DNA from: Patescibacteria group bacterium | Lineage (GTDB): Bacteria; Patescibacteriota; WWE3; UBA101185; UBA10185 | Assembly (NCBI GenBank): GCA_049322215.1 | Contig: JBMORU010000001.1 | Location: 260,023 to 324,022 of the forward strand | DNA: 64,000 nucleotides | Reading direction: 5' to 3' | Part shown: one piece after another, positions 1-38,466 of the stretch | How the letters are laid out: each line of letters starts with the position of its first letter | Position numbering within the stretch: the stretch's first letter is position 1 | Made by a program: the position numbers and the translations under genes | Notes under the pieces: generated by a model | Database searches by the model: none | Told to the model about the DNA's origin: nothing | What the model saw: the letters and a program-made list of their open reading frames with translations, nothing else

Positions 1-560
1 CCTTCGTAGCTGCCATTGGCGTTTTCGAGTAAGGGCCAGTTTCGATGACTGTGATAAGTATAAATAAACTGCCCCATACATGTTGCTCCAGATTTGTAGT
101 TTTTTATGGTTTCGCACACGCCGTTTTGATACCGCATGGCATTGAAACCACTTTCAACCAAAATCATTGAGCCTATCTTGTTCCAGGGGACATTTTGGTT
201 GTAGGCTTCATCCTTAAAGGCGTTGATCATTTCTAACCTTGAAGGACCACAACCGTCACCGTCAGCTAAAATGTAAGGCACTCCATTGTCAGTGAAAACG
301 TAGTTGTTGAAGTTTTCTTGCCCTACAATTTTAATAACTTCTTCTACCGAAACTGCAACAAATTCGATGTCGTTCACGGTTACCGTAATGGCACCTACTT
401 CTGTGCTTATGGTTGAAAAAGCATTGGCTGCCATTGGTATTGATGTTGGTGGTTGTTTGGTTGGTGTGATTGTTGCCTGTGGTGTTGGTTCTACCTTTGC
501 TGTTGCACTGCAGGCTACAAGCAAAAGCATAATCATTGTTAGCATCAAGCTTTTTTTCAT
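1..560 (-). CDS. Lipoprotein, N-terminal part (gene runs off the window start); signal peptide with LVAC lipobox, Pro/Thr linker, then AFSTI..TVTV.DI module
   Basis: Minus-strand ATG at 558-560 preceded by AAGGAG; translation MKKSLMLTMIMLLLVACSATAKVEPTPQ... is open to the window edge; not in the ORF track because it is truncated. Confidence 0.55.
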   Translation of the reverse strand, partial: MKKSLMLTMIMLLLVACSATAKVEPTPQATITPTKQPPTSIPMAANAFSTISTEVGAITVTVNDIEFVAVSVEEVIKIVGQENFNNYVFTDNGVPYILADGDGCGPSRLEMINAFKDEAYNQNVPWNKIGSMILVESGFNAMRYQNGVCETIKNYKSGATCMGQFIYTYHSHRNWPLLENANGSYE

Positions 561-571
561 GCTTGTCTCCT

Positions 572-1489
572 TTAGTATGTATACATATTAGCTGGGTTCA
601 CATGGTACATGTATCCATTTTCCGTGAGTATTACAACAGAGTTGTGTACATGCGTACCCGATCCATGCTGGTTATTGGTATACCTAGTTACTACTCCACC
701 GCTTGTATATCCTGTGTTTCCTTGGCGTCCAATTTGGGTTCCTGCTGTTATGCGATCTCCCGGTACTGGGTAAGGGTGCCCTGCATCTTCAAACATCATA
801 TGTCCCGAAATTGTCAGAATTATAACCTCTCCGGTACTAGATGCTGTTTGAGCTTCGGGTGGTAAGTTTGAAACAGCAATTTTGCTTGCGCAAACTACTG
901 TTCGTCCTGAAACATCAAATTCCCAGGTTAGTCCACCTTCTGCATTGCCGTCATAGCCTAAGTTGTCGAATGTTCTCCAAACGACGCACTCGGATTGGGC
1001 AATTATGGGAGCACCTTGACCCCCGTTACAGACGATATCGTAGCCTGAATGTCCTCCACTTGGGTTAAACCCTTGTGTAGGATCATAACCTCCTGTACAT
1101 GGTGATGTAATAGAAGTTACGACTGGCAAATCTAAATCTCTGATACTTGCACCAGCAACTACCATTGATCCAATATTAGGTACCGATCCCTCGCCAATTA
1201 CAGCGCCTTGCGGGTTTGTCCAATTATTGATATCTCCCACAAGAACTGTCATGTAAATGGGACTCACCTCAATGATGATGTCCTCACTTACTAACGAGCT
1301 ATCTACACGGCCGGTTTCGGTTCCGATCGTGGAGAAAGCAAGCTCGGCTGTGGGTTTTGGCGTTTCGGTTGGCACAGGAGTTGGTGACGGTACTGCTGTC
1401 GGACTGGTTGGTTGCTCATTAGATGGAATACATCCAACCAGAAGCAACACTACCAGAAGGTATTTGATTACCTTTGTTGTTGCTTTCAT
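572..1489 (-). CDS. M23-family metallopeptidase lipoprotein
   Basis: Signal peptide plus LVGC lipobox; Pro/Thr linker; HxxxD (GGHSGYDI) and HxH (GTHVHNS) M23 motifs; stop lies 12 bp upstream of the next gene start. Confidence 0.8.
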   Translation of the reverse strand: MKATTKVIKYLLVVLLLVGCIPSNEQPTSPTAVPSPTPVPTETPKPTAELAFSTIGTETGRVDSSLVSEDIIIEVSPIYMTVLVGDINNWTNPQGAVIGEGSVPNIGSMVVAGASIRDLDLPVVTSITSPCTGGYDPTQGFNPSGGHSGYDIVCNGGQGAPIIAQSECVVWRTFDNLGYDGNAEGGLTWEFDVSGRTVVCASKIAVSNLPPEAQTASSTGEVIILTISGHMMFEDAGHPYPVPGDRITAGTQIGRQGNTGYTSGGVVTRYTNNQHGSGTHVHNSVVILTENGYMYHVNPANMYTY

Positions 1490-1678
1490 AGAACTACTCT
1501 CCTTATTTGGTTTTCAAACTGCTCGATAATTATTTCTTAACGAAGAATTGAATCTCCCTTCGTTTCTGGGTTTAAATAAAATTCCTGTTTAAACTCAGAA
1601 GTAAGGGGACGAAACAGAATTAGAGTTTTTATTTAAAACTTCCAACTCTGTTTCGTCGTATTCTTTTACCTGTTTCCG

Positions 1679-2998
1679 TTAGTTTTCGAACGGGTCTAGG
1701 TCGAAGAATCCCAAAACTTTACGAGATACATCAGCTATAGTTGTTGCGTTGTCGTTGTTATCAAGGAATAGCTGAGACAAGGGTGGCTTATTAATTTCAT
1801 AGACTAGAAGAAACGTATAGTTTTTCACTTTACCATTACGTGTTTCACGTATTGTGGTGAGCACAAACGGCGTTTCATACGTTTTTCCAAAAGCAGTTAC
1901 GGTTGCAAAGTGTTCTGATACCAGCTCGTAGTTTGCGTTGGTGTGTTCCCCATGTAGCCACGTCCAAATATCTTTTGCCATAATTACATATGAGGCGGGA
2001 GATATTTGGAAGCTCAGTACTTCTTGATCTCCAAGCATTGGGGGTACTACTAAGGAATCGTTGCTTGTTACTTCCTGTGGCGCCGTGTTAGCAAAATCCG
2101 TTCCTGCAATTGATTCAGCTGGTTGCGGATTAAGCTGTGGTTCTGGTAAGGGTTCTGGCTCAGGCTCGGGAGCGTTGTTTTGTTGAGGTTGTTCGCTGGG
2201 CTGATTGTTGTTTTCTGGCGCAGGCTGTTCTTCTGGGCCTAAAACTTGTTCTCGCAGGTTTTCCATTTCTGGGCCAACTGCGTTTACAAGTTGGTTGTAG
2301 AGATCTGTGTTGTCTTTGAGGTTTGGGTCTACAACCACACCATAGAATAAATCCGTAGCGTTTCCCCCTAACGAAGCTGTTGCATGCATTGCATTGATTA
2401 GCCAGGTGAAGTCCATTTCTTGCACGGGTGTTGTTTTGATTGTTACCTCCCACCCATACAAGTAACTGTCTACAGTTTGCTGTGCACTGAAGTTACCTCC
2501 TGCTGCAGCTTGCTGTAGCTTACCTCCATATAAGTAAGTTTCTTCCTGGTTGCCACTTTGCCACGCCACGTTAAAGTTATTTGCCCAGCCTGTTACGGTT
2601 TCTTGTGTTTGTTTGGGGGTAAGCCCATCAAACATAGAAATCATTCGATGCTGTTCAATTACTTCGGTGGCGAGGATTGGGATATCCTGAACGGTTACTG
2701 TGACTCTACCTTGATTACTCGTGGTAGAGAAAGAGTTTGCCGCTGCGGTCATTTCGCTTGCAGGTTGATCCTTGGCATTTGGCAATTCTGCTGCGGGCAC
2801 CATTTCGTTTGTTGTAGTTTCTTCCGGGTTAGCGCTACTGTTAAAAAAGTGGAATGGGTCAGTTACGATCAGAACAATTACCACTACACCAATTAGCACC
2901 CCAGAGGAGATCACTTGCTGTACTTGTTCACGTGTCCGTTGCAGAGTTGTTTTTGTTGTCTGCTGTTGTCTTGCTTGAGTATCTGTTTGCTTACTCAT
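1679..2998 (-). CDS. Membrane-anchored extracytoplasmic protein with Q/R-rich N-terminus, single TM, and PE/PQ-rich linker
   Basis: 439-aa ORF; N-terminal TM (VLIGVVVIVLIV); contains the AANSFSTTSNQGRVTVTVQDI module shared with the two downstream lipoproteins. Confidence 0.6.
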   Translation of the reverse strand: MSKQTDTQARQQQTTKTTLQRTREQVQQVISSGVLIGVVVIVLIVTDPFHFFNSSANPEETTTNEMVPAAELPNAKDQPASEMTAAANSFSTTSNQGRVTVTVQDIPILATEVIEQHRMISMFDGLTPKQTQETVTGWANNFNVAWQSGNQEETYLYGGKLQQAAAGGNFSAQQTVDSYLYGWEVTIKTTPVQEMDFTWLINAMHATASLGGNATDLFYGVVVDPNLKDNTDLYNQLVNAVGPEMENLREQVLGPEEQPAPENNNQPSEQPQQNNAPEPEPEPLPEPQLNPQPAESIAGTDFANTAPQEVTSNDSLVVPPMLGDQEVLSFQISPASYVIMAKDIWTWLHGEHTNANYELVSEHFATVTAFGKTYETPFVLTTIRETRNGKVKNYTFLLVYEINKPPLSQLFLDNNDNATTIADVSRKVLGFFDLDPFEN

Positions 2999-3012
2999 TT
3001 CTACTCCTTTTG

Positions 3013-5364
3013 CTACTTAGGATCGGCTGTTGTGCACGTTGCCAAATCCAAATAGCAGTCAAATGATACGCTAAAGTGCTGCGCTTCTTGGATGTTGGCT
3101 GGTACGCTGTCTGATAAGAACCAACCGTTACCTTCACCTGCATGGTAGTCAATACGATATTTTCCTGAAGAGTCCTTGCAGGCGTACCAGGTACCGTAGT
3201 TTAAGCCGCCGTCTGTTAGGTCTACAATTGCTAGCATATGCCAACCTGTTCTTTTGTAATCATACGAGGCCAAGTTTGTATCGCAGTTTGGGTCGGCGTT
3301 AGCAATTACTTCGGGGTATAGCTGATCTCCCATAACACCATTACTATCTGCATAGATAATTCCACGCGGATTTCTGTTGTTATCAAGATCCAACCAATAG
3401 TAGTTACGGGGGGCTATGTTGGACGGAATTGTTGAAACCAAATACCATCCAATTCCTAGCCTAGAAACCGGAATCCAGCCTTTGCATGTCCATTCTGAGG
3501 CGCCTACGTAAATTCTTACGGGGCCAAACGTAGGCATGCCTTTGTCTAATCCTGTTTCAGCAACAATGATATCCGGCCAGAATCTTTCAAACTCAAGTTG
3601 TGTGGTATTCTGGTCAATCATCCCCATGTATGGAAGCTCAGGGAATGGGATGTTTACACAGGGATCAGGTGTGGGGCTTGGTGTAAACGTTGGTGCTGGT
3701 GTTTCTGTTGGGGCCGGTGTTAACGTAGCTGTTGCAGTAGGTAATACCACTTGTGCAGGATCAAAGTGCTGTGTTTGCGGTTGTGGTGTTGCTGTTTGCT
3801 GAATCTCCACAGTAATCGGTTGTGCTGCAGCTTTTAAGGTGTTTACATAACCGGAAAATCCATTAATACGTACAGGACTTCCTAACGCTGCCAAATTGCC
3901 ATTTACGGCGTTGACCGCGTTGTTGAATCTTCCTTCGTACTTTTGAGCTTCGGTCCAGTTAGGTCCTTCGGGTGTAGCATCTAGGCGCAGGTTTTGATAA
4001 ACACGCACCAGATTAAAATACAGCCCGTCTTTTTCGCCGTCTGTTAGTTCATTACCCTCGATAAGGCGTTTAGCCGTTTCGAGCATTAAATCTGCCTGTG
4101 CCGCTTCGATGATGGGTTGAGTACCTTCCGGCGGGTAAGCCATAGATTGCACTCTGGTAAGGAATCCCTCAGGAACGTAGTTTCCATTGGCGTCCACGTG
4201 TCCCGCTTGTAACCAGTCTAAAGCAATGTTGTACGATTCTTCTACACCTGTGGATTCTTCACTTCCGATCAGTAATGCCGAGAAGTCAACTTTTGCAGCA
4301 CCGGTGCCATTGTTTGCATTGGCGCGCGCTTGGTTGGCTTGGTTACCTAACTCTACTGCCGGCAAAATAAACTGGTTGATCACCTGGTTTATTTCTTCAA
4401 CGCCTTGAGCGGTGATTGCCGGGTTGAATTCAGGTAAAGCTGGTGCATCAACAACGGTGTTATTATATGCATCGACTTGGCCTTGATCAGGATGTGGTGT
4501 CGGTGTGCTGTTGGTATTAAGATCTACCATAGCTGCCTGAGTGTTTCCACCTTTAGCGACTAAGGTTTCAAGCAAACCACCGAAGTTACCGTTTTTAAGT
4601 CCGGAAATTAAGATCATGGAAGCTACAGCTGTGACGATAATCAGCGGATAAGCAACTTTACGGATGATGGCCGGTTTTCCCTCGCTTTGAACGTGGACGT
4701 AACCTGCAATCACAATCGCGATCAAAATTGGTAACCACTGCGTAAGTTGCGTTGCCAGGGCTGCTACGACGAAAAAACAAACCAGGCCAAGCGCTATGTA
4801 ATTACCATGTTGTTTAAACAAGGCAACCCATTTTTGCACTTGATAGGCTTCCTCTGAAACGGCTTTTGGTGCTTGAATGCTAGGTACTTTAGAAAAGAAT
4901 CCTGCGGCACCGCTTTCACCATCCTGCTTTTGTGCTTTTTCCGTAGGTTTTGCTTTGGTTTTAGGCTGAGCATGGCTACCCGAAAGCGTGAATACCGTTG
5001 TTGGTTTCCACATCTTTTTGGTATAAACCATATAGCCAGAGACTGCCGTAGTTGTGATCCAGGAAAACACCCCTTTCCACCACATGAAATTATGCATTTC
5101 TTGGGTGTACCAGTATGGGCCTGTGTTCATAACCCAGACATAAAACGCTCCAAATAGAAGCGTGACTAATAAAGTGATCAAAAAAACTTTGTTTTTCTTT
5201 GACTCTGTACTTGTTTTTTTGACCCAGCCTTTCTCCACAAGAATGCTTAATGCAAGTGGAGAAAGCTCTTTAAGACTTTTTTGCTGGTCAGAATGTTCCA
5301 TTTTAGACCATTCTTGCAACAACTTTCTGTCTTTTGAACTCAACGTTTTAGTTGCACTAGTCAT
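3013..5364 (-). CDS. Polytopic membrane protein, paralog A (cytoplasmic N-terminus, TM bundle, Pro/Thr linker, unique C-terminal extracytoplasmic domain)
   Basis: 783-aa ORF; AAGGAG RBS; shares a 100% identical ~130-aa core and ~55-60% flanking identity with ORF 5553..7796. Confidence 0.7.
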   Translation of the reverse strand: MTSATKTLSSKDRKLLQEWSKMEHSDQQKSLKELSPLALSILVEKGWVKKTSTESKKNKVFLITLLVTLLFGAFYVWVMNTGPYWYTQEMHNFMWWKGVFSWITTTAVSGYMVYTKKMWKPTTVFTLSGSHAQPKTKAKPTEKAQKQDGESGAAGFFSKVPSIQAPKAVSEEAYQVQKWVALFKQHGNYIALGLVCFFVVAALATQLTQWLPILIAIVIAGYVHVQSEGKPAIIRKVAYPLIIVTAVASMILISGLKNGNFGGLLETLVAKGGNTQAAMVDLNTNSTPTPHPDQGQVDAYNNTVVDAPALPEFNPAITAQGVEEINQVINQFILPAVELGNQANQARANANNGTGAAKVDFSALLIGSEESTGVEESYNIALDWLQAGHVDANGNYVPEGFLTRVQSMAYPPEGTQPIIEAAQADLMLETAKRLIEGNELTDGEKDGLYFNLVRVYQNLRLDATPEGPNWTEAQKYEGRFNNAVNAVNGNLAALGSPVRINGFSGYVNTLKAAAQPITVEIQQTATPQPQTQHFDPAQVVLPTATATLTPAPTETPAPTFTPSPTPDPCVNIPFPELPYMGMIDQNTTQLEFERFWPDIIVAETGLDKGMPTFGPVRIYVGASEWTCKGWIPVSRLGIGWYLVSTIPSNIAPRNYYWLDLDNNRNPRGIIYADSNGVMGDQLYPEVIANADPNCDTNLASYDYKRTGWHMLAIVDLTDGGLNYGTWYACKDSSGKYRIDYHAGEGNGWFLSDSVPANIQEAQHFSVSFDCYLDLATCTTADPK
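4580..4968. repeat. Near-identical ~390-bp direct repeat, copy A (inside paralog A)
   Basis: DNA is essentially identical to 7010..7398; encodes KTKAKPTEKAQ...NGNFGGL in both proteins. Confidence 0.8.
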
Positions 5365-5427
5365 TTACATCTCCTTATAGATTTCACTAGTTTGGGATTC
5401 TTCATTTGTCAAAAATGCTATTATTAC

Positions 5428-5476
5428 TCTCAATTTAAGTCAGCAAACTTTGTTAAGCTTGTTGGCTTAAGGGAGA
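5428..5476 (-). promoter_or_regulatory. Conserved leader element with TTAAGC-N6-GCTTAA palindrome upstream of paralog A; candidate TTGACA -35 lies between it and the RBS
   Basis: About 50 bp are ~90% identical to 7861..7910 at the same distance from the start codon; preceded by a long imperfect hairpin at 5477..5524. Confidence 0.5.
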
Positions 5477-5552
5477 GCCTGAACTTTATGCATGTATTTA
5501 TTTTTAAATGCATAAAGCTCAGGTCATAGTTACAACTGGTTATTTGTTATGT

Positions 5553-7796
5553 CTAGGGTGCGTTCACTGGCTGGAAGGTAAAGGCGTCATACTCAATGCC
5601 ATCTTTCCAGTAGGTGAAGGTTTCCTCTGCATTGGGCTTCAATACAAATTGACCTACCCCAGGAGCAGCGTCGACAGCCATAACACCATCCCAACCCGGA
5701 TACGAAACCCAATAGTGTCCGCAGTAAGTACTGGTATACGTTACCGTAATCACTACATCACTTGTATACTCATGAGCTCGTATCAGTGCGAATCCAAATC
5801 CAGGCCAGGCTTCTATTTGATGTCCAAGCACTACAGTAGTTGTGTCTCCAACTGCGATGTGTCCGGGTTCAGGTCCATTTGGGCCTTGAACAATAAGAAC
5901 GCTACCTACACCATTTACATTACTTCTCACGTTGTAATGCGGGGGCTGAGGGGGCTCTAGCAGATCACACCAGATTACTTCGTTTCCACTTGGATTTGGA
6001 GCTGCCACTGTGGGATTCACAGGGAATACTTGCTGCGGCTCTAAAGTTGGCACAAGTGTAGGCCATGGCGTCATTGTAGGAGCTGTCGTTGGAACCACCA
6101 CGGGCACATCTGTTGGCCAAGGCGTGTTGCTAGGTACTGGCGTTTGCGTCGCCGTAGGCTGTACCACGTTTTCTGGGTTGAACTGCTGCGTAGGCATTGG
6201 TGTTGCCGTTTGCTGCACTTCCACAGTAAGTGGTTGTGCTGCCGACTCCAGTTTACCTGCAAAGTTATCCAGCAAGGGTAGTCGTGCTTGGGAGCCAAGT
6301 CCGGCGAGTTCACTGTTAACAATGTTTGCTGCAGCGTTGTACCTATTCTCATATAGCTTTGCCGCTTCCCAATCTTGGTGGTTTAATTCCAGAGACTGAA
6401 GCATCAACACCAAGTTCAGGTAAGCACCATTCAACTCGTAGGAGCTTGATGCGTAGTGAGTCCCTTGCAAAAGGCGCGCTGCTTCTTGCGAAAGCGTTGT
6501 ACCTTCAATAGGTTCTCCAATGATTAGCCGTTTTGCTAAGTTCTCTAAGCGGGCTTTATCTTCTACGCTGATGATCGGTACTGAGCCGTCAGTTGGTTCT
6601 GCCATACTTGCGAGGCGCTCAATGTACCCACGTGATACATAAGTGTTGTCTGCATTCACGTGTCCTGACATCAACCAGTCTGCAGCAACGTTGAAGCTTT
6701 CTAATACACCTGTGCTTCCCGCTTCACCGTTGAGTAACGGTCCAAAGTCGATTTGTGCTGCTCCAGTGCCGTTGTTAGCACTTGACCGGTAGGTATCCGC
6801 TTCCAAGGCTAAGGTAACGGCAGGGATAACGAACTGATTCGCTACCTGACCAATTTCCTCGGCTCCCTGGGAGGTGATTGCCGGATTGAACTCTGGCAGC
6901 ACGGGCGCATCAACTACTCCTTGGTTGTAGGCATCAATAGCACTGGTGTCTACGCTTGCTTCTACCACTTCTGTTTCTGTAACGTTGTTGGCGCTAAAGT
7001 TGAATAAGCCACCGAAGTTACCGTTTTTAAGTCCGGAAATTAAGATCATGGAAGCTACAGCTGTGACGATAATCAGCGGATAAGCAACTTTACGGATGAT
7101 GGCCGGTTTTCCCTCGCTTTGAACGTGGACGTAACCTGCAATCACAATCGCGATCAAAATTGGTAACCACTGCGTAAGTTGCGTTGCCAGGGCTGCTACG
7201 ACGAAAAAACAAACCAGGCCAAGCGCTATGTAATTACCATGTTGTTTAAACAAGGCAACCCATTTTTGCACTTGATAGGCTTCCTCTGAAACGGCTTTTG
7301 GTGCTTGAATGCTAGGTACTTTAGAAAAGAATCCGGCAGCACCGCTTTCACCATCCTGCTTTTGTGCTTTTTCCGTGGGTTTTGCTTTGGTTTTATGTCG
7401 TATTTGCTCTTCTGGAAGTGCATAGGTTGCTTCAGGCTTCCACATTTGTCGTTTGATAGCTAAGGTGCTAGAACAGGACAGCATAACCAGCCAGGTCAAA
7501 ATACCTTTCCACCAAACGAATCCGTGCATTTCCTGTGTATACCAGGATGGGCCGGTTGTCATAACCCAGGCATAAAACATTCCTAGCAGAAGTGTTCCAG
7601 CCAAAAAAGCAAGCGTTACCCTTTGTAGCAACGACCATTCTTTGGTGACGGAAAGTTCTTTCTTTTCCACCAGCAAATCAAGCGCTGCCTGCGAAAGGTC
7701 TCGCTCTGTCAGTTGTAACTTTTCAACGTTCGTTAAGCCTCGCCAACCCCGAAGGTGTTTGCGATCGGCTTCACTTAAGGTTGTTTTCTTACTCAT
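5553..7796 (-). CDS. Polytopic membrane protein, paralog B (same architecture as A, different C-terminal domain)
   Basis: 747-aa ORF; identical core block; divergent C-terminus (..HYWVSYPGWDG..). Confidence 0.7.
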   Translation of the reverse strand: MSKKTTLSEADRKHLRGWRGLTNVEKLQLTERDLSQAALDLLVEKKELSVTKEWSLLQRVTLAFLAGTLLLGMFYAWVMTTGPSWYTQEMHGFVWWKGILTWLVMLSCSSTLAIKRQMWKPEATYALPEEQIRHKTKAKPTEKAQKQDGESGAAGFFSKVPSIQAPKAVSEEAYQVQKWVALFKQHGNYIALGLVCFFVVAALATQLTQWLPILIAIVIAGYVHVQSEGKPAIIRKVAYPLIIVTAVASMILISGLKNGNFGGLFNFSANNVTETEVVEASVDTSAIDAYNQGVVDAPVLPEFNPAITSQGAEEIGQVANQFVIPAVTLALEADTYRSSANNGTGAAQIDFGPLLNGEAGSTGVLESFNVAADWLMSGHVNADNTYVSRGYIERLASMAEPTDGSVPIISVEDKARLENLAKRLIIGEPIEGTTLSQEAARLLQGTHYASSSYELNGAYLNLVLMLQSLELNHQDWEAAKLYENRYNAAANIVNSELAGLGSQARLPLLDNFAGKLESAAQPLTVEVQQTATPMPTQQFNPENVVQPTATQTPVPSNTPWPTDVPVVVPTTAPTMTPWPTLVPTLEPQQVFPVNPTVAAPNPSGNEVIWCDLLEPPQPPHYNVRSNVNGVGSVLIVQGPNGPEPGHIAVGDTTTVVLGHQIEAWPGFGFALIRAHEYTSDVVITVTYTSTYCGHYWVSYPGWDGVMAVDAAPGVGQFVLKPNAEETFTYWKDGIEYDAFTFQPVNAP
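7010..7398. repeat. Near-identical ~390-bp direct repeat, copy B (inside paralog B)
   Basis: Matches 4580..4968 with only a few edge mismatches. Confidence 0.8.
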
Positions 7797-7860
7797 AAGT
7801 TGTTTTACTCCTTATTTTGGTATGTTTACTTATTATGAGTCGTTTAATTCATTTAGTTCT

Positions 7861-7910
7861 CTCAGTTTAAGTCAGCAAACTTTATTTAAGCTTGTTGGCT
7901 TAAGGGAGAG
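7861..7910 (-). promoter_or_regulatory. Conserved leader element with TTAAGC-N6-GCTTAA palindrome upstream of paralog B
   Basis: Homologous to 5428..5476; flanked by the hairpin TCCGAATTG...CAATTCGGA at 7911..7960. Confidence 0.5.
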
Positions 7911-7983
7911 TCCGAATTGCAACAGTATGTTTTTTGAAAAAACTTACTGCCACAATTCGGATGTCATTATTTAGGTTACTTTG

Positions 7984-8487
7984 TTAGCCACTGAGACGCA
8001 CATATGTGAACAAACCAAAAACTACGATCACAATTTGCGTAACGTAGAAGACGGTCGCCCATAAAGGTTGTAAACGTCCTTCTTCTGTTCTCATAAATGC
8101 TTTGGAACCAAACAGGACGATCATTAGGAGAACGGCTGTGCTTCCCCAATACAGTGGTTCAAAGGCCAGTGAATTGAATAGCCATGTTCCCGGTTTTGGT
8201 TGAGGAATGATCCATGTCCATATGCCTAGCCAAATGTAGGTAGTGCCTTCTTTGGTTATTGCATAGTGTCCCAGACGCACCACGATCATAGCAAGCCAAT
8301 AGACGGTGAATAAAAGTTCTGGGAACTTGTAAAACACCGGATAGGTGATTCGATCATATGTGTCTTGTTTCAGTACTTTTAGCACGTTTGTTTGGCGTCG
8401 TTGCTGTGGCTGGTTTCGATTACGTTGTTGTGTATTATTCGTCATTTTCTTCACCTCCGTCGTCAGGGAATGCACCGACTTCTTCAA
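7984..8487 (-). CDS. Membrane protein with Q/R/N-rich cytoplasmic N-terminus
   Basis: 167-aa ORF; 3-4 predicted TM segments; codon usage matches the island. Confidence 0.5.
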   Translation of the reverse strand: MKKSVHSLTTEVKKMTNNTQQRNRNQPQQRRQTNVLKVLKQDTYDRITYPVFYKFPELLFTVYWLAMIVVRLGHYAITKEGTTYIWLGIWTWIIPQPKPGTWLFNSLAFEPLYWGSTAVLLMIVLFGSKAFMRTEEGRLQPLWATVFYVTQIVIVVFGLFTYVRLSG

Positions 8488-9523
8488 CTTCTATGTGTCT
8501 AGCTTTGTCGGCAGTATCTCCTTCTGTTGCTTGATTCAATCCCAGCATGTTTCCAATAGGTGTGTTGATAAGGAACTTTGCTGCCAGCGCGGTTATAAGG
8601 CCACCATTCTCTACCATCCATACTGCTGCTGCTGTTTCCGGTGAAAATCCTGCACCTTTCGCAATTTCTCCGATGGCTTCACCTTTCTCACGCATAGCAT
8701 GTTTAGCAGGCGTTCCAGTGTCTTTGTCGTCTACACGCTGGATGGTAAATATGAAGCTTTTTGGATCAATGCCTGTTTCCGTAATGACCTTTCTATTTAA
8801 ACCATATCGGAATGGTGACTGTGCCTTCTTACGAAGTTGTTGTTCTCCGGTTTCAAGGCTTTCCTCACCAAGTACTATGGCAATAAAGTCATCGATAAAG
8901 GGTCCTATGAAGGAAATAAACCCTTTGTCATTGCCAATTTGCTCATATTTATCCTTATCGTCTGGATTTGTGCTTAGGGTCCAACCAATACGCCAAGTCA
9001 CCTTGTCGTATTCAACACGGGATTTAGTCTTAGGTTCAACAGTTGTTCCCGAATACGAGCGTATGGCCTCCCGACTGATAAAGAATCCACGCAGAAAATA
9101 ACCGGGTACTAAGCTCAGAAAAACAACAATAACTAGGAACAACCAGGGAAGACCATCAAATATCCCAGGGGAATTTGCGGCTTCTGTTTGTGTTTCTTCT
9201 GCTGTTTCTTGCGCTATGGGTAATGCATCTGTGCGTACGTAGCGTACGGGAGCGTTTCCACTGCCATCATCGCTAGGACGCCCACGAAGCTCAACGCGTT
9301 GTACGCCTTGCACTTCGTTCCATGCATTGTCCGCCCATGGGTTATCGTTTTCTTTCACCACATCCGTTGGTTGGGCCTGGTTAAAGGCACTATTTGGATC
9401 GTGGTACAGATTTGTTCCTGTAGGTATCTCTTGGCCACCACCGCATGCTACAAGCAATGCGATTAGTAAGGCCAAGAGAATACCCTTGAATATTTTGTTT
9501 GCCAAAGGCATTCTCTTGTTCAT
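8435..9523 (-). CDS. Lipoprotein with an internal TM segment; unknown function
   Basis: Signal peptide plus LVACGGG lipobox; 362 aa. Confidence 0.55.
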   Translation of the reverse strand: MNKRMPLANKIFKGILLALLIALLVACGGGQEIPTGTNLYHDPNSAFNQAQPTDVVKENDNPWADNAWNEVQGVQRVELRGRPSDDGSGNAPVRYVRTDALPIAQETAEETQTEAANSPGIFDGLPWLFLVIVVFLSLVPGYFLRGFFISREAIRSYSGTTVEPKTKSRVEYDKVTWRIGWTLSTNPDDKDKYEQIGNDKGFISFIGPFIDDFIAIVLGEESLETGEQQLRKKAQSPFRYGLNRKVITETGIDPKSFIFTIQRVDDKDTGTPAKHAMREKGEAIGEIAKGAGFSPETAAAVWMVENGGLITALAAKFLINTPIGNMLGLNQATEGDTADKARHIEVEEVGAFPDDGGEENDE

Positions 9524-9538
9524 TGTCTTACTCCTTAT

Positions 9539-10330
9539 TTATTCTTCGTCGTTTTCGCGCATGGCATAGGCTACAATTACCGCTACAAACAACACGCCAA
9601 TCCCCAGGATGTAGGTGTTGATCGTAGACAGTGACGTTGCCAAATCAGCCAAAACACGGCCAACAGCTACGCTGTAAACGAATTGTGGTATAGCCATACC
9701 CGCTTTCATCAAAATGGCCATGAGCGGGGCTGCTAGTACCAAAATGCCCAGGGCAAGCAGACTGATGTCTTTTGCCACTTCCAGGGCTGTTCGTACTTTT
9801 TCTTCAATCTTCGGTGAAAGCATTTTTCCAAAAACTACTACGCCTGCAATCACCAGAAGAGGCAGACCTTGCGCAATAAAGTTAGCGGTGCCGATACTAC
9901 GAGCATAAAACACTGACACCACTACCAGTAATCCGGCAAGCCACAACCACAGGTATTTAAACTGAAAAGCATCTCCTGACCGACCCAGCGCAGAACTGAA
10001 AAGACCTGCAATGAAGGCTCGGTTAAAGTATGCAACGATTAGTGCTAACAGCACAAAGAACCACAGTGAAGTGATCCCGTCTGCAGCGCCTGATACCTGG
10101 TTGATGCCGTTGACCGCGTCTGTAGTAAGGTCGCTAAGGCCGTCAATGGTTGTCAGTTTTTGGCCAATTTCGGTCTCGCGAATGGCTGTTCCACCGCGTG
10201 CGATGGTTAAGAGCCATGAGGGTGCTCCCCAACGTTCTAGTGCGGGGGAAGCCACTGACAAAATCACCAGTACAACAAATGCCCCAAACAGTAGTTTGAG
10301 CACAGTCTTGAGTGAAAAAATCTTTGACAT
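9539..10330 (-). CDS. Polytopic membrane protein; unknown function
   Basis: 263-aa ORF with many hydrophobic helices; first gene of the minus-strand island run. Confidence 0.55.
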   Translation of the reverse strand: MSKIFSLKTVLKLLFGAFVVLVILSVASPALERWGAPSWLLTIARGGTAIRETEIGQKLTTIDGLSDLTTDAVNGINQVSGAADGITSLWFFVLLALIVAYFNRAFIAGLFSSALGRSGDAFQFKYLWLWLAGLLVVVSVFYARSIGTANFIAQGLPLLVIAGVVVFGKMLSPKIEEKVRTALEVAKDISLLALGILVLAAPLMAILMKAGMAIPQFVYSVAVGRVLADLATSLSTINTYILGIGVLFVAVIVAYAMRENDEE

Positions 10331-10646
10331 TTACTTACTCCTTATTATTTTGAGTTTTATTTCGTGACTAACAAATTGTCAACTTGCAATAAGTTGCAAA
10401 AAAAGCAACACGTATTCCGTCTTGCTCACACAACTTATTTCAATTATCAGTTTAGAGCCAAACCACAAGGGTTTTTTGTGGATCCAAACTTCTTTTATTA
10501 TACACTATAGGCTACACTTTTGTCCATCCTTATAGTGTTTTTTCATTTTAACACTATTCGTAAGTAAAATGAAATTTAAAAAGTCTCTATATCCTATAAC
10601 AACAGCAATTTATCACTATTGGTTATTTTCCCTTTAAATCTTAGGG

Positions 10647-11732: not shown

Positions 11733-14700
11733 TTATTTTAATTTAATTGCAAATTCTTGATCTGTGTTTAGTGTTCCTTTATATTCAACCCTTCCTTCGT
11801 ATGTTTCTGCAGGAGGTTGTGTAAAATCTATATTTAACCCAAAGGGAGAGTTAAATAGTACATTGTAGCTGTAGTCTTGCGTTCCCGGTTGTTTTTGCCA
11901 GTATAGTTTGTAGTCTTTAAACTCTTTTGATAAAGATAAAGATTCTGGCAAATCATATTTAAGAACTAAAGTTACTTTTTCTTGCGGATTTACTGTGAAG
12001 TTGGTTCCAAATGAAGTATATTCACCTGCTTGTTCTATAGTTATTTCCTCAATTAGATCTTTCTCAAAGTTATCGTTTCTTTTTAATTCAGCACCTGTTA
12101 ATTTTGTACCCTTTTGAGTTAATACTCTTACATAATCTGTGTAAGGTCCTCCAGGCCAAGCACTTGAATCTCCAGTGTGTATATAATCAAGATATAATTC
12201 TGCTCTTAATACGCCATCTCGTGTTTCTGACAAAATGTTGTAGTACATTTCATTTTTAACATAATAGTTTGCTTTAGTTCCACCTAAATTGGCGTTTACT
12301 ACATATAAATAGTCGCCTGTAGTTTTTGCTAACTCTCCTGTCCAACCATTTTCCTGTAGTTTTGCGTTAAAAGATGTATTTGGTAAGTACACCATGAAGT
12401 GCTTTTCTTCCATTGCGGTTGTTAATGTTGTAACAAGCTGGGGTAATTTTTCGCTTTCCAGGGCAATCATTTTTTCTAAAAGTTTACTTCCTAATATTGT
12501 TAAAAACGATTTCTTTTGTGTGGATCCCTCCTCATAGTTGAATTCGCTATGATATTGGGTTACTTCATACATATTTTCAGCGTTAACCTCCTGATTGTAT
12601 GCGGTTAAAAATACGGGTCCTGTGACGCTTAATAACTCTTGTGCAAAATATAAATCTATTGCTAATACGCCATCAAATTGGCTTTCATCTACTTTGAAAA
12701 ATAGATCCTCTATAGTTTTTGCAGATTCAGGGAAACTTGGATTCCAGTTAGCATTTCTTATGTGAAGATTTTCCTCTTTTAATAAGTCTACTATTGGTTT
12801 AGGTGCTGGAACTTCTATACTTCTGATGTCTATTTGTCCATCTGGATTATATATGTCGTCTATTGCTAGTTTTGCTATTTTCCCTTTTTCTAGTTCTAAT
12901 ACTGCATAAGACCCTATAAACCCTCCGGTAGGTCTTAGCTCATTACTATTTTGTAATAAAATTAGGTACCTTTTTTTGCTTTCGGCTCCAAGTATTTGGG
13001 GTAAATCTGATGTTAACGTTGCAGCAATGTCTAAACCTTTTTCCATTTTGGCAATAGCCGCATCATAAGATATAACTTCGTCTTTTATGTTTGAGGGTAA
13101 ATTATTAAGATTAGTTTGTTTTAAGTCGCCAATTGCAAACTGCAAACTTTCACGTGCACTTGATAATTGCAATTTGGCTTCAGCTAATTGCTGAGCATCA
13201 AATTCTGTCTCAGTGTTGCTTTCTATTGCGCCCCATACTTTAAAAAATGGGTTTGAAGCTTTAGCTGTACTATGTATAGCTCTTGAAAAATGTTTTCCTG
13301 AATCAATTACTTTTTGAGTTGCTTCGTACTGTTCTCTTTTTCCTACAATAGTGAACACCCAACGTAGTTTAGACAGGGCACCTTGAGTTTTTGATAATTC
13401 CTCATAGGCTATATTAGCTGAATTTACAGCTTCTTCTGAATTTAAATTACTTAAGCTTTTTACATAGTTAACTAGCTCAGTTCTAGCATTTTGTGCATGA
13501 GTATAGGTTTGCACTGAGGGTACTGCAATACTAACAATTAAAAACGCTATAAATATTCCCAAAATCATTAAAAACACGTTTTTATTTAAACTTTTTATAG
13601 AGAGTTTAGATAATTTGGTTGAAACTTTTGTATTGTTTTGCTGTACCTCGGCATTAAAAGGAAGTAGCCCTGGTGTATTTTCAGTTGTTTCCTGTGCTGT
13701 TGGGGGAGGTGCTACGCTAAAAATATCTTGCTCATTCTTTGTGGTTTCTTCTGATAAAGATGATAAAGTTTCAGTTGTTTCGCTTTTTACATCTGCCAAG
13801 CTAAATTGAGTTTCCTGTTCTCTTTTTTTCAACTCTACTTTTGGTGTTTCCGATTGAATTTGAGAACTTTTATCTCTGGAAAACTTTTCTTTTATTTTTG
13901 TGAAGGCACCTTTGTTATCATTTATTGATTTTGTTACGGCGATGTTTTCTTGAGCTATAGAAAGTACTTGCTGTGGTTCGTGCTGCGTATTTTTTCTTTC
14001 TACTATTTTAGATAGTTTAAAACTATTTGTGTTTATTTCATAACCAAACCACTTAAGTGTTTTTATTATTCCTTCTTTATAAGAAATTTTTGGATACCAG
14101 CCCAGGTGTTGCAATCCTTCGCGCTCACTTACATTTGAATCTTTGGGTTTTATAGGATCTTCCTTATCTTCAAAACTAACTTTTAGTTCTCTGTCGGCTA
14201 GTCCTTTTAACAAGTATGCTGTTTCAATAACTGTATGGGGTTCTTTATCTACCAGTGAGTATATTTTTCCTTTTGTATCATCATTAAAAAGTGCTTTAGC
14301 TATACCGGCAACTGCATCAGTTATGTACAAGTAATACTCTCTATCATTGCCTTCTCCATAAACAGTTAGGTCTTGATTTTCTAGCAAAGCTTTCATTAAA
14401 CGACCTAAATCTCCTGTGGAATTTAAATTCATGCGTGGTCCAAACACCTCTGGAAGTCTTACTATGCGTACATCTGTTTGGTACTTTTTGTAATATTCCC
14501 AAACTAAGGCTTCTGCAAATCTTTTAGCTTCGGTTAAAGAGTACTTTTTTTCTTCCTTTGGCGTCTTTCCAAAATAATTGTCTAAATCAATTGATGACAT
14601 TAATCCTTGGTACACATTTGTAGATGATCCAAGCAAAAATTTTGCATCTGAGGTTCTTGCTAGGTCTAACAATGCCTTTGTACCCACAGCATTAGTTAGT

Positions 14701-15044
14701 AAAGATTCTAAATCGGCATTGTCTGTGTTAGATAAATAAGTTTCTATACCTGCCAAGTGAACAATGTAATCTACACTTTGAATTCTTTCAGGCAAACCTT
14801 GATTTATATCTACATCGAAAACAGCAAATTTTGGGTTTTTTAAGAGGGAACTTATATAAACGTCTTTTCCGGTTGTGAAGTTGTCTAAAACAACTACCCG
14901 AGCATCTTTAAGTAGCAAAAATTCTGCTAAATGAGAGCCTAAAAAGCCTGCTCCTCCAGCTATAAGGGCAGTGGGTGCGTTAGGTGTCTTTTTGATCACA
15001 TTTTCTTTAGGCATAGGCAGCTTTTTTGTTGTGCTTGTACGCAC
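11733..15044 (-). CDS. Fusion protein: NAD-dependent epimerase/dehydratase (extended SDR) - TM segment - large extracytoplasmic DUF4012-like domain
   Basis: GGAGFLGSHL Rossmann motif at the N-terminus; central TM (FLMILGIFIAFLIVSIAV); C-terminal region contains KRYLILLQNSNELRPTGGFIGSY, recalled as the DUF4012 signature. Confidence 0.75.
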   Translation of the reverse strand: MRTSTTKKLPMPKENVIKKTPNAPTALIAGGAGFLGSHLAEFLLLKDARVVVLDNFTTGKDVYISSLLKNPKFAVFDVDINQGLPERIQSVDYIVHLAGIETYLSNTDNADLESLLTNAVGTKALLDLARTSDAKFLLGSSTNVYQGLMSSIDLDNYFGKTPKEEKKYSLTEAKRFAEALVWEYYKKYQTDVRIVRLPEVFGPRMNLNSTGDLGRLMKALLENQDLTVYGEGNDREYYLYITDAVAGIAKALFNDDTKGKIYSLVDKEPHTVIETAYLLKGLADRELKVSFEDKEDPIKPKDSNVSEREGLQHLGWYPKISYKEGIIKTLKWFGYEINTNSFKLSKIVERKNTQHEPQQVLSIAQENIAVTKSINDNKGAFTKIKEKFSRDKSSQIQSETPKVELKKREQETQFSLADVKSETTETLSSLSEETTKNEQDIFSVAPPPTAQETTENTPGLLPFNAEVQQNNTKVSTKLSKLSIKSLNKNVFLMILGIFIAFLIVSIAVPSVQTYTHAQNARTELVNYVKSLSNLNSEEAVNSANIAYEELSKTQGALSKLRWVFTIVGKREQYEATQKVIDSGKHFSRAIHSTAKASNPFFKVWGAIESNTETEFDAQQLAEAKLQLSSARESLQFAIGDLKQTNLNNLPSNIKDEVISYDAAIAKMEKGLDIAATLTSDLPQILGAESKKRYLILLQNSNELRPTGGFIGSYAVLELEKGKIAKLAIDDIYNPDGQIDIRSIEVPAPKPIVDLLKEENLHIRNANWNPSFPESAKTIEDLFFKVDESQFDGVLAIDLYFAQELLSVTGPVFLTAYNQEVNAENMYEVTQYHSEFNYEEGSTQKKSFLTILGSKLLEKMIALESEKLPQLVTTLTTAMEEKHFMVYLPNTSFNAKLQENGWTGELAKTTGDYLYVVNANLGGTKANYYVKNEMYYNILSETRDGVLRAELYLDYIHTGDSSAWPGGPYTDYVRVLTQKGTKLTGAELKRNDNFEKDLIEEITIEQAGEYTSFGTNFTVNPQEKVTLVLKYDLPESLSLSKEFKDYKLYWQKQPGTQDYSYNVLFNSPFGLNIDFTQPPAETYEGRVEYKGTLNTDQEFAIKLK

Positions 15045-37334: not shown

Positions 37335-38387
37335 ATGGATCCTGTTCAACTTATTTTGCTTGTTTTAGTTTTAGTCATTGTTGCTGTCGTTTCTGTTATG
37401 TTTTTTGTATCTAAGCAAGTAACAACCTTAAAAACAGAACTTTCCAGTGATTCTGATGTCATATTACTAGAGTGGCTTAAAGAAATGAAAACAAGTGTTG
37501 ATAAAAATTCTGATGTTTTAGAGCGCCAACTAAAAGATCATCGTTCTGCTATGAATGAGCAAACCAAATTAATGTGGGAACGCCTAGACAATGCTTCAAA
37601 GGTTATAGGTGATGTACAGCAGCATTTGGGTGGTTTGCAGGAATTTGGTAAAGATATGAAAGACTTAAGCAACATACTTAAGTCTCCAAAACTTAGAGGC
37701 GGTTTAGGTGAACAATTTTTGTATGAAATTCTTGATAATTCTCTTCCTAAAGAAATGTATAAAGCGCAGTATAAATTCAGAGATGGGAGCGTTTGTGACG
37801 CAATAATAATCACAGAAAAGGGCATAATTCCTATAGATTCTAAGTTCCCTATGGAAAACTTTAAATTAATGCTTACTGAAGGCGACGATCTTGCCAGAGA
37901 AAAAGCTAAAAAAGTTTTTGTACGTGATGTTAAAAAGAGAATAGACGAAATTTCTTCTAAATACATTTTACCTGAAGAGGGTACTACCGATCAGGCAGTT
38001 ATGTATGTTCCTTCAGAAAATGTTTATTACGAGCTAATTGTTAACACTCCTGAGATTGAAGAATACTCTAAGCAAAAAAACGTGGTTTTGGCTTCTCCAA
38101 ACACGCTATCTTACTTTTTAAAAGTTATCCTAGTTGCTTTTCAGCAGCATGAGTTGCAAAAACATGCTGGAGATATATTAAAGTCACTAGCAGGAATAAA
38201 GGTGGAAGCACAAAAGTTTGAAGGCGAACTCGATGTCTTAGATGGTCATATTTCACGAACATTTAAATCTATGGATAATGTTAAGTCTAAATATCAAAGA
38301 CTATTTGGAAAAATCGAGTCTGTTCACACATTAGATAGCGAAACGGAGACACCCTTGATTGATAGTGATCAAGCAGAGGTGTTTTAA
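37335..38387 (+). CDS. rmuC: DNA recombination protein RmuC
   Basis: N-terminal TM, coiled coil, and VLASPNTLSYFLKVI RmuC-type motif. Confidence 0.75.
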   Translation: MDPVQLILLVLVLVIVAVVSVMFFVSKQVTTLKTELSSDSDVILLEWLKEMKTSVDKNSDVLERQLKDHRSAMNEQTKLMWERLDNASKVIGDVQQHLGGLQEFGKDMKDLSNILKSPKLRGGLGEQFLYEILDNSLPKEMYKAQYKFRDGSVCDAIIITEKGIIPIDSKFPMENFKLMLTEGDDLAREKAKKVFVRDVKKRIDEISSKYILPEEGTTDQAVMYVPSENVYYELIVNTPEIEEYSKQKNVVLASPNTLSYFLKVILVAFQQHELQKHAGDILKSLAGIKVEAQKFEGELDVLDGHISRTFKSMDNVKSKYQRLFGKIESVHTLDSETETPLIDSDQAEVF

Positions 38388-38466
38388 TTTTGCTTTTTTT
38401 ACTTATCCAAATCTCTCCTTATTTAGTTTCTCGAATATTTTAACATTAGTACGTTATAATGCTCCC

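What the first reader, a model, noticed from the sequence alone, without database searches (positions are those of the whole stretch)
3013..7796. Tandem ~750-aa membrane paralogs with a 100%-identical 390-bp core and unrelated C-terminal domains
ORFs 3013..5364 and 5553..7796 share the same architecture: cytoplasmic N-terminus, TM bundle, Pro/Thr linker, extracytoplasmic C-terminal domain. N-terminal identity is ~55%, then comes a block that is essentially 100% identical at the DNA level (4580..4968 vs 7010..7398), then ~60% identity, then completely unrelated C-terminal ~200-aa domains. A mosaic identity gradient like this is the hallmark of recent gene conversion or recombination within a family of variable surface proteins or polymorphic effectors. 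The identical direct repeat 2.4 kb apart would also allow deletion or cassette exchange.
Basis: seen in the sequence. Interest (0 to 1): 0.75.

Follow-up and report, generated by a model that had tools for sequence, protein, structure and literature searches.

The report
Tandem membrane paralogs homogenised by gene conversion
Two neighbouring genes for large membrane-anchored surface proteins in a tiny symbiotic (Patescibacteria) bacterium recently copied a 387-base membrane-spanning segment from one to the other while keeping different outer tips, and both sit in a rare, uncharacterised seven-gene cell-envelope operon that also encodes two cell-wall-cutting enzymes.

Summary
Two minus-strand ORFs, A (3013-5364, 783 aa) and B (5553-7796, 747 aa), share a 387-nt block (4577-4963 vs 7009-7395). 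It has 3 mismatches, all synonymous, and a perfect 326-nt run. The flanks are 41-48% identical at protein level with saturated synonymous sites. That pattern means recent gene conversion, not selection.

An independent short-read assembly breaks exactly at the block edges, which argues against an assembly or polishing artefact.

A and B are a duplicated component of a conserved operon: a polytopic membrane protein, a lipoprotein, a small membrane protein, the ~750-aa protein, a single-pass protein, an M23 peptidase and an SLT-like transglycosylase. I found the same operon in four other genomes, each with one ~750-aa gene. In all five loci it is richer in GC3 than its flanks.

The family is very rare: 4 distant relatives among 1.84 billion representatives. 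It has no Pfam, PDB or fold match, and its C-terminal domains differ between members.

My inferred reading is that A and B are alternative specificity or adhesin subunits sharing one membrane dock. The phenomenon is a known kind. The operon itself is uncharacterised.

The parts
3013..5364 (-). Paralogue A, 783 aa (NCBI: hypothetical protein ACOZAO_01390, Patescibacteria MAG). It has 5 predicted TM helices, a helical ectodomain (aa ~300-515), a Pro/Thr linker and a Cys-rich beta-type C-terminal domain.
   Evidence: An AAGGAG Shine-Dalgarno sequence precedes the ATG.
5553..7796 (-). Paralogue B, 747 aa (ACOZAO_01395). It has the same architecture as A with an unrelated C-terminal domain.
   Evidence: An AAGGAG Shine-Dalgarno sequence precedes the ATG.
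4577..4963 (-). Gene-conversion tract, copy in A. It encodes aa 135-264: a Lys-rich cytoplasmic loop plus TM3-TM5.
   Evidence: 387 nt with 3 synonymous mismatches, all in the 5' 61 nt; pS 0.055, pN 0.
7009..7395 (-). Gene-conversion tract, copy in B.
   Evidence: The Logan contig L003 carries the B-side flank and stops at 7347.
5426..5478 (-). Conserved ~50-nt hairpin in the leader of A. Its 25-nt core is identical to the copy upstream of B.
7859..7910 (-). The same hairpin in the leader of B.
   Evidence: Positionally equivalent hairpins occur in the four other cassettes.
9539..10330 (-). First gene of the operon: a 263-aa polytopic membrane protein (~6 TM).
   Evidence: A gene of the same size, position and topology occurs in L002, L004, L006 and L008.
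8435..9523 (-). 362-aa protein with a lipoprotein signal, an internal TM and an acidic C-terminal tail.
   Evidence: Homologous to s425 and t387 (E 1e-11 to 1e-12) and weakly to v354 (E 0.004); u328 is linked through s425 and t387.
7984..8487 (-). Small membrane protein, 153-167 aa depending on the start codon.
   Evidence: Weak BLAST links (E 0.003) plus conserved position.
1679..2998 (-). 439-aa single-pass membrane protein with a Pro-rich region.
   Evidence: Homologous to t408 (6e-10) and u411 (8e-14).
572..1489 (-). 305-aa lipoprotein of the M23 peptidase family. The HxxxD and HxH catalytic motifs are conserved.
   Evidence: The last gene of the operon, a 308-aa SLT-like lipoprotein, lies just left of the window (L001 4047-4973).
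10497..10526 (-). Promoter-like site (TGGACA-18-TATAAT, 11/12) between the rplY terminator and the first operon gene.
1..10450 (.). GC-rich block that coincides with the operon: 43-50% GC against ~34% for the rest, and GC3 0.35-0.48 against 0.15-0.26. It extends ~370 nt beyond the left edge of the window, up to leuS.

Best explanation
SHOWN. A and B are an old tandem duplicate; synonymous sites are saturated outside the block. They encode the ~750-aa component of a conserved 7-8-gene envelope operon in a Patescibacteria genome. A recent intragenomic gene-conversion event overwrote 387 nt of one copy with the other. The 3 differences clustered at one end suggest possibly two nested events. The tract covers the cytoplasmic loop plus transmembrane helices 3-5.

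INFERRED. The ~750-aa protein is the modular 'specificity' subunit of the complex. Its N-terminal TM bundle docks it among the other membrane components (the 263-aa, 362-aa and ~160-aa proteins). Its helical ectodomain and Pro/Thr stalk carry an exchangeable beta-rich C-terminal binding domain through and beyond the cell wall. Stalked M23 and SLT-like hydrolases sit alongside it and could cut peptidoglycan, either the cell's own or that of the host the episymbiont sits on.

Having two copies gives the cell two different heads. Both must fit the same partners, so homogenising the membrane core is tolerated or favoured, while the exposed parts diverge. The 387-nt direct repeats 2.4 kb apart are also a substrate for RecA-type deletion, which would leave a B-N-terminus/A-C-terminus hybrid gene, or for amplification.
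For: Tract and boundaries. Synonymous test: core pS 0.055 and pN 0, against pS 0.62-0.85 in the flanks. Independent short-read contigs from SRR32167788 are 100% identical to the window. They end at 4606, which is 30 nt into the perfect run, and at 7347, which is the start of a shared 38-mer. That is the behaviour expected of a k=31 graph at a true two-copy repeat, and the B-side contig carries the B-side flank sequence. For a direct repeat in a linear path the only consistent order is the one assembled. Conserved operon: the same gene order in L002 (Saccharibacteria MAG), L004, L006 and L008, with BLAST links for 6 of the 7 components (the 263-aa protein by size, position and topology only); the ~750-aa gene is single-copy in all four. 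Active-site motifs of M23 and the catalytic Glu-Ser of SLT are conserved. Variable heads: A's C-terminus is 43-44% identical to s750, while the rest of s750 gave no comparable alignment to A (only 26-28% to B's middle domain); B's C-terminus is an orphan; P0003 and P0004 carry other domains; L006 has a stand-alone extra copy of its head domain. Topology. Both copies have their own Shine-Dalgarno sequence and a conserved leader hairpin. Recombination genes (AddA-like, RmuC) are encoded in the window.
Against: There is no functional evidence at all. No component other than M23 and SLT has a Pfam, NCBIfam, PHROG, PADLOC or PDB match. AF2 models are poor (mean pLDDT 46-49); only the helical middle domain is confident and it matches nothing specific. 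The C-terminal folds are unknown, so 'binding domain' rests on composition and position only. Read depth and spanning reads could not be inspected. The coincidence of the tract with a structural module could be chance.
Confidence: 0.6

Rival explanations
1. Campbell-type insertion or exchange rather than conversion. A 2.4-kb circular molecule carrying core, B-C-terminus, spacer and A-N-terminus, excised from a tandem pair in another strain, integrated by a single crossover in the core of a resident single gene. That would leave the homologous core as a direct repeat on both sides.
For: The geometry fits exactly: near-identical direct repeats flank one unit of 2432 nt. Patescibacteria are naturally competent (PMC10633639). 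All four relatives have a single-copy gene.
Against: It needs a donor that already had the tandem pair. It predicts that B-N-terminus plus A-C-terminus was the ancestral gene, and nothing supports that. Conversion between resident paralogues is simpler. No strain with a single hybrid gene was found.
Confidence: 0.12
2. Assembly or polishing artefact. The two copies really differ throughout, or there is only one copy, and the block was duplicated or homogenised by the assembler.
For: The window is a MAG. Read depth could not be checked here.
Against: An independent de Bruijn assembly of SRR32167788 has both unique flanks and breaks precisely where shared 31-mers begin, at 4606 and 7347. That happens only if the block is shared by two contexts in the reads. 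Its sequence is 100% identical to the window over 4.6 kb and 12.2 kb. The 3 copy-specific differences, and divergent flanks on both sides of both copies, do not fit a simple duplication error.
Confidence: 0.03
3. The operon is a degenerate or novel type IV secretion-like module. A and B would be 'extended VirB6'-like channel subunits, which are known to occur as tandem paralogue arrays in Rickettsiales. The M23 and SLT enzymes would be VirB1-like wall openers.
For: The parts list resembles a monoderm T4SS: polytopic membrane proteins with large hydrophilic extensions, a small membrane protein, bitopic proteins and cell-wall hydrolases. Patescibacteria carry unusual, essential T4SSs (PMC10633639, PMC12857230, PMC12102498).
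Confidence: 0.1
4. The operon is cargo of, or a remnant of, a mobile element or prophage. A and B would be its receptor-binding or entry proteins, with swapped heads as in phage tail fibres.
For: GC3 exceeds the flanks in all five loci. The genomic neighbourhoods differ in the five loci, and the orientation next to leuS is opposite in two related genomes. In L004 the operon is embedded among dozens of 60-100-aa ORFs with similar GC3. The two lysis-type enzymes also fit.
Against: There is no integrase, att repeat, tRNA, capsid, terminase or replication gene. There are no PHROG hits beyond weak endolysin. Three IMG/VR scans, phage and plasmid tblastn, and BFVD folds all found nothing. The GC offset tracks each host's GC instead of being constant.
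Confidence: 0.12
5. Polymorphic toxin or effector locus. The conserved N-terminal delivery part would carry variable C-terminal toxins.
For: Constant N-terminus with a variable C-terminus. L006 has an extra stand-alone C-terminal module.
Against: There is no toxin domain and no delimiting motif. There is no small immunity ORF: the 188-nt spacer holds only a hairpin and a Shine-Dalgarno sequence. The heads are Cys/Trp/Tyr/Gly-rich beta-type domains. The L006 extra module has its own TM anchor, which is adhesin-like rather than an orphan toxin tip.
Confidence: 0.03

Closest known systems
Segmental gene conversion between paralogous surface-protein genes (for example Helicobacter pylori babA/babB and sabA/sabB, Neisseria opa; concerted evolution of tufA/tufB). 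This comparison is from my own knowledge.
   Same: Paralogues share sharply bounded tracts of near-identity, including at synonymous sites, embedded in divergent sequence. The exposed parts stay different.
   Different: Here the copies are adjacent and in tandem. The converted part is the membrane-embedded core rather than the 5' or 3' ends. The organism is a Patescibacterium, and the protein family is unrelated to any of those.
Extended-VirB6 paralogue arrays of Rickettsiales T4SS, and the Patescibacteria T4SS (PMC12857230, PMC10633639, PMC12102498).
   Same: Tandem polytopic membrane proteins with large hydrophilic C-terminal extensions, in an envelope gene cluster that also has cell-wall hydrolases, in a monoderm episymbiont.
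   Different: There is no VirB4 or VirD4 in any of the five loci, no TrbL/VirB6 homology and no pilins. The membership tests failed.
Polymorphic toxin systems (CdiA, Rhs) with orphan C-terminal modules. This comparison is from my own knowledge.
   Same: A constant N-terminal part with an exchangeable C-terminal domain. Repeats allow recombinational swapping.
   Different: There are no toxin or immunity pairs and no delimiting motifs. Both copies are complete genes, each with its own ribosome-binding site and leader hairpin.
Phage receptor-binding proteins and tail fibres with a conserved N-terminal anchor and swapped C-terminal heads. This comparison is from my own knowledge.
   Same: The conserved part plugs into a common machine and the head domains are shuffled between lineages. 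A's head is closer to that of a distant Saccharibacteria homologue than the rest of the protein is.
   Different: These are integral membrane proteins in a chromosomal operon. No viral sequence or fold match was found.

Membership tests
Gene-conversion tract between paralogues | A segment with far higher identity than both flanks, with abrupt boundaries | tested here: met
   99.2% over 387 nt, against roughly 35-50% nt identity immediately outside.
Gene-conversion tract between paralogues | Synonymous sites are homogenised as much as non-synonymous ones, so the identity is not purifying selection | tested here: met
   Core pS 0.055 and pN 0; flanks pS 0.62-0.85 and pN 0.28-0.52.
Gene-conversion tract between paralogues | Both copies are really present and linked in the genome (not an artefact) | tested here: inconclusive
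   Independent short-read contigs break at the repeat edges and carry both flanks. Depth and spanning reads cannot be tested with these tools.
Type IV secretion system / extended VirB6 | A VirB4-family ATPase encoded in the cluster | tested here: not met
   None is present in the window operon or in L002, L004, L006 or L008.
Type IV secretion system / extended VirB6 | Sequence or fold similarity of the polytopic protein to TrbL/VirB6 | tested here: not met
Polymorphic toxin / effector | A recognisable C-terminal toxin domain with an adjacent immunity gene | tested here: not met
   No Pfam, NCBIfam or PADLOC hits for the C-terminal domains, and no ORF between B and A.
Silent-cassette antigenic variation (pilE/pilS, vlsE type) | One expression site plus promoterless, truncated donor cassettes | tested here: not met
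   Both copies are full length with a start codon, a Shine-Dalgarno sequence and the same leader hairpin.
Integrated mobile element / prophage | An integrase or recombinase, att direct repeats, or a tRNA target | tested here: not met
   No tRNA lies nearby. No flanking repeat longer than 9 nt. No integrase among the 8 genes.
Integrated mobile element / prophage | Composition that deviates from the host | tested here: met
   GC3 is 0.35-0.48 against 0.15-0.26 in the window. It is also elevated in L002, L006, L008 and, in part, L004.
Peptidase M23 (operon component p305) | HxxxD and HxH zinc-binding motifs; Pfam PF01551 | tested here: met
   The motifs are conserved in the 3-way alignment. The L002 orthologue passes the Pfam gathering score, 38.1 against 28.7. 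The window copy is below threshold at 16.1 bits.
SLT lytic transglycosylase (operon component p308, left of the window) | Catalytic Glu-Ser in the SLT fold; Pfam PF01464 | tested here: inconclusive
   A conserved L-x-E-S motif and the YKG motif are present. The L002 orthologue scores only 17 bits against a cut-off of 21.3.

The most novel reading that the evidence does not exclude
The seven-gene operon is a previously undescribed, rare Patescibacteria envelope machine for engaging or breaching the cell wall of the host bacterium. Stalked M23 and SLT hydrolases, and the other downstream proteins, would dock through a shared N-terminal strand onto a membrane platform. The ~750-aa protein would be its exchangeable host-recognition subunit. 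The window would then capture a lineage that doubled this subunit to carry two heads, kept interchangeable in the platform by gene conversion of the membrane core. The persistent GC3 excess of the operon in five genomes would reflect unusually frequent recombination or lateral replacement at this locus.
Probability: 0.25. Interest if true: 0.75.

Novelty: new member of a known kind. Interest (0 to 1): 0.45.

Why it matters
How ultrasmall episymbiotic Patescibacteria recognise and tap their host cells is largely unknown. Only type IV pili, an odd T4SS and a few adhesins have been implicated so far (PMC10633639).

This locus offers a concrete, testable candidate for that gap. It is a compact operon of membrane proteins and wall hydrolases whose largest component has interchangeable outer domains. 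In this genome that component is duplicated and actively recombining.

The locus is also a clean natural example of domain-restricted concerted evolution: the membrane core is homogenised while the exposed parts diverge. On its own, however, gene conversion between tandem paralogues is textbook biology.

Tried and rejected
Searches on A, B and the neighbouring operon proteins:
- Pfam, NCBIfam, PHROGs and PADLOC gave nothing except a weak M23 hit.
- A PDB sequence search with A, and profile searches for three other operon components, found nothing.
- The word-indexed 5.8-billion-protein search returned only A and B themselves. A second run with a 6-sequence alignment and a third with P0003 plus P0004 returned only the query's own first sequences, so these were effectively wasted.
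- The exhaustive HMMER search gave 4 true relatives. The other hits were driven by the Pro/Thr low-complexity linker and I rejected them after reading the sequences.

Collection scans:
- Two JGI metagenome scans found no relative.
- Three IMG/VR scans found no relative.
- tblastn of A against the plasmid and phage collections gave no match.

Structure:
- Two AF2 runs gave pLDDT 46 and 49, with the C-terminal domains unmodelled.
- afdb50 was not available.

Other checks:
- No att-like repeats at the operon borders.
- Rfam gave only a sub-threshold mir-8 hit, which I take as chance.
- An exact look-up of B in the contig index returned nothing on record.
- A literature search for a described GC-rich envelope island in Patescibacteria found nothing relevant.

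I rejected purifying selection as the cause of the identity because of the synonymous-site test.
Full report
OBSERVATION

Both ORFs are real and lie on the minus strand: A at 3013-5364 (783 aa) and B at 5553-7796 (747 aa). At a constant offset of 2432 nt, 4577-4963 matches 7009-7395 over 387 nt. There are three mismatches, at 4903, 4906 and 4945, and 4577-4902 is a perfect 326-nt run.

Identity changes from near-random to about 100% within a few bases at both ends. The block encodes residues 135-264 of both proteins, 130/130 identical. Protein identity elsewhere is 41% (aa 1-134), 47.5% (aa 265-520) and 61% in the low-complexity Pro/Thr linker. The last ~200 residues share nothing detectable (best BLAST E = 28).

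The duplicated unit also includes a ~70-nt piece of the upstream leader (5414-5483 vs 7846-7916). There is no third copy in the window and none in the source genome at detectable similarity.

IS IT GENE CONVERSION?

Nei-Gojobori counts on the codon alignment give pS = 0.055 and pN = 0 in the core. The flanking regions give pS = 0.78 (N-terminus), 0.85 (middle domain), 0.62 (linker) and 0.72 (C-terminus), with pN 0.28-0.52. Synonymous sites are saturated outside the block and almost untouched inside it. The duplication is therefore old and the identity recent, which is the signature of conversion or recombination rather than constraint.

All three differences fall in the 61 nt at the gene-5' end of the tract. 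This suggests either patchy heteroduplex repair or two nested events (inference).

IS IT AN ARTEFACT?

The source is an NCBI Patescibacteria MAG on a 1.11-Mb contig (locus tags ACOZAO_01390 and ACOZAO_01395). An independent Logan assembly of run SRR32167788 yields two contigs that are 100% identical to the window.
- One contig covers the window from its left edge to 4606, which is 30 nt into the perfect run.
- The other starts at 7347, at the beginning of a 38-nt stretch shared by both copies, just past the B-specific base at 7377.

As far as I know, Logan contigs are built from a k = 31 graph. Breaks at k-1 into shared sequence are what a true two-context repeat produces, and they would not occur if the copies really differed inside the block. 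For a two-copy direct repeat on a linear path the assembled order is the only consistent one. Depth and spanning reads remain unchecked.

Window 1-10450 is 43-50% GC against ~34% for the remaining 53 kb. GC3 is 0.35-0.48 against 0.15-0.26. The block continues ~370 nt left of the window and ends at leuS; on the right it ends before rplY.

It is a single minus-strand operon. The order is: a strong promoter-like site (10526-10497) after the rplY terminator, eight genes, then a terminator shared with the convergent leuS. The genes are:
- p263, a polytopic membrane protein;
- p362, with a lipoprotein signal, an internal TM and an acidic tail;
- p167, a small membrane protein;
- B;
- A;
- p439, a single-pass protein;
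- p305, an M23 lipoprotein;
- p308, an SLT-like lipoprotein, which lies outside the window.

THE FAMILY AND THE OPERON ELSEWHERE

An exhaustive HMMER search of 1.84 billion representatives found only four real relatives of similar length and architecture: P0003, P0004, P0005 and P0007. The remaining hits were Pro/Thr-linker noise. I obtained the genomic context for all four. In each the same gene order recurs:
- L002, an uncultured Saccharibacteria MAG: 263 / 425 / 152 / 750 / 431 / 294 (M23, above the Pfam threshold) / 259 (SLT-like);
- L004: 269 / 387 / 145 / 744 / 408 / 313 / 294 / 304;
- L006: 279 / 328 / 135 / 889 / 178 / 411 / 351 / 287 / 293;
- L008: 288 / 354 / 150 / 800 / 419 / 431.

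BLAST links six of the seven positions across loci. The 263-aa protein is matched by size, place and topology only. M23 zinc ligands and the SLT Glu-Ser are conserved. Only the window has the ~750-aa gene twice.

The flank of L008 is syntenic with the window's left flank, with LeuRS 67%, TsaD 62% and SBP 52% identical. Its operon nevertheless abuts leuS in the opposite orientation, and its proteins are only ~24-25% identical to the window's. In all five loci the operon's GC3 exceeds that of its flanks: 0.35 vs 0.25, 0.50 vs 0.33, 0.51 vs 0.44, and partly so in L004.

MODULAR HEADS

A's C-terminal domain is 43-44% identical (E ~ 1e-13) to that of the Saccharibacteria protein. The rest of that protein gave no comparable alignment to A; its middle domain matched only paralogue B, at 26-28%. 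B's head matches nothing. P0003 ends in Ig-like-looking repeats. P0004 ends in two copies of a further domain, and its operon carries a third copy as a separate TM-anchored 178-aa protein. The family is thus a constant TM-plus-helical-stalk part with exchangeable C-terminal domains.

WHAT COULD NOT BE LEARNED

INTERPRETATION

Three things are shown:
- an old tandem duplicate;
- a recent conversion tract limited to the cytoplasmic loop plus TM3-5;
- membership of a conserved, very rare envelope operon with two peptidoglycan hydrolases.

The rest is inferred. I read the ~750-aa protein as the specificity or adhesin subunit of a membrane complex. Its two copies present different heads on Pro/Thr stalks, and the shared membrane core is kept identical because both must fit the same partners. 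In an episymbiont, the stalked hydrolases could act on the host's wall.

The T4SS-like, prophage-remnant, Campbell-insertion and polymorphic-toxin readings are each weakened by specific failed tests; see the rival explanations and membership tests. The repeat pair is a plausible substrate for deletion or amplification, but no evidence of that was obtainable here.

VERDICT

The finding is real and the gene-conversion reading is correct. As a phenomenon it is a new instance of a well-known kind. The added value is the uncharacterised operon around it, which deserves a look by people working on Patescibacteria-host interaction.

Noticed in passing
window 1-10450; L002 7288-15392; L004 6343-15286; L006 7592-17579; L008 7365-15062: The operon is richer in GC, and specifically in GC3, than its flanks in all five genomes. 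The offset tracks each host's own GC rather than being a fixed value. That is odd for simple recent transfer. It might reflect frequent recombination (GC-biased conversion) or repeated lateral replacement.
   Followed up: partly
window 1679-2998 (p439 aa ~88-110), 572-1489 (p305 aa ~50-75); L001 4047-4973 (p308 aa ~46-70); equivalents in L004, L006 and L008: The proteins downstream of the ~750-aa gene share a ~25-30-aa module just after the membrane anchor and Pro/Thr linker, for example NSFSTTSNQGRVTVTVQDI, LAFSTIGTETGRV..EDIIIEV and NAFSTISTEVGAITVTVNDI. The module is more alike within a cassette than between cassettes. It could be a common docking strand, or it could be homogenised locally.
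   Followed up: partly
window 5426-5478 and 7859-7910 (minus strand); L002 ~9903-9946; L004 ~8759-8828; L006 ~9888-9934; L008 ~9885-9926: In all five cassettes a long hairpin sits 60-110 nt upstream of the ~750-aa gene. It lies in the only sizeable intergenic gap of the operon (150-210 nt). In the window it precedes both paralogues, with a 25-nt identical core. It has no canonical U-tail, so it may be a processing, stabilising or attenuating element.
   Followed up: partly
window 7911-7961: An almost perfect hairpin with ~25-nt arms (84% complementary) lies directly after the small membrane-protein gene and before B's leader hairpin. It is absent upstream of A. The fold z-score for the region is -7.6.
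   Followed up: no
L006 12766-13302 and 10001-12670: P0004 (889 aa) ends in two tandem copies of a ~110-aa domain. The next gene, 178 aa with its own TM anchor, is a third copy (46% identity over 120 aa). This is head-domain duplication by a different route from the one in the window.
   Followed up: partly
L008 1-7025 vs L001 5047-14035: A related genome (LeuRS 67% identical) has the operon next to leuS as well, but in the opposite orientation and with ~24% protein identity. This points to either a recombination hotspot or an inversion, plus very fast divergence or replacement.
   Followed up: partly
L004 4400-6200 and 15400-19400: In this locus the operon is flanked by about 20 ORFs of 60-100 aa. 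Several are mutually similar SH3/KOW-like small proteins, and one has a cold-shock domain. Their GC3 resembles the operon's, which looks like a larger island or mobile element.
   Followed up: no
L004 12404-13345; L006 14602-15657: Two cassettes carry an extra gene (313 and 351 aa) whose N-terminal module resembles that of the preceding p439-like gene (44% identity over 43 aa). This is another tandem partial paralogue within the operon.
   Followed up: no
window 11733-15044: An ORF of 1103 aa fuses an NAD-dependent sugar epimerase/dehydratase to a DUF4012 domain through a long low-complexity segment and a TM segment.
   Followed up: no
window 37335-41331: An RmuC-family gene is immediately followed by an AddA-like UvrD helicase/PD-(D/E)XK nuclease gene (990 aa). 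This shows that recombination functions are encoded in the genome.
   Followed up: no
window 1609-1656 (minus strand): A sub-threshold Rfam hit to the mir-8 microRNA family (30.7 bits against a gathering score of 47) lies in the spacer between p439 and p305. It is almost certainly a chance hairpin.
   Followed up: no
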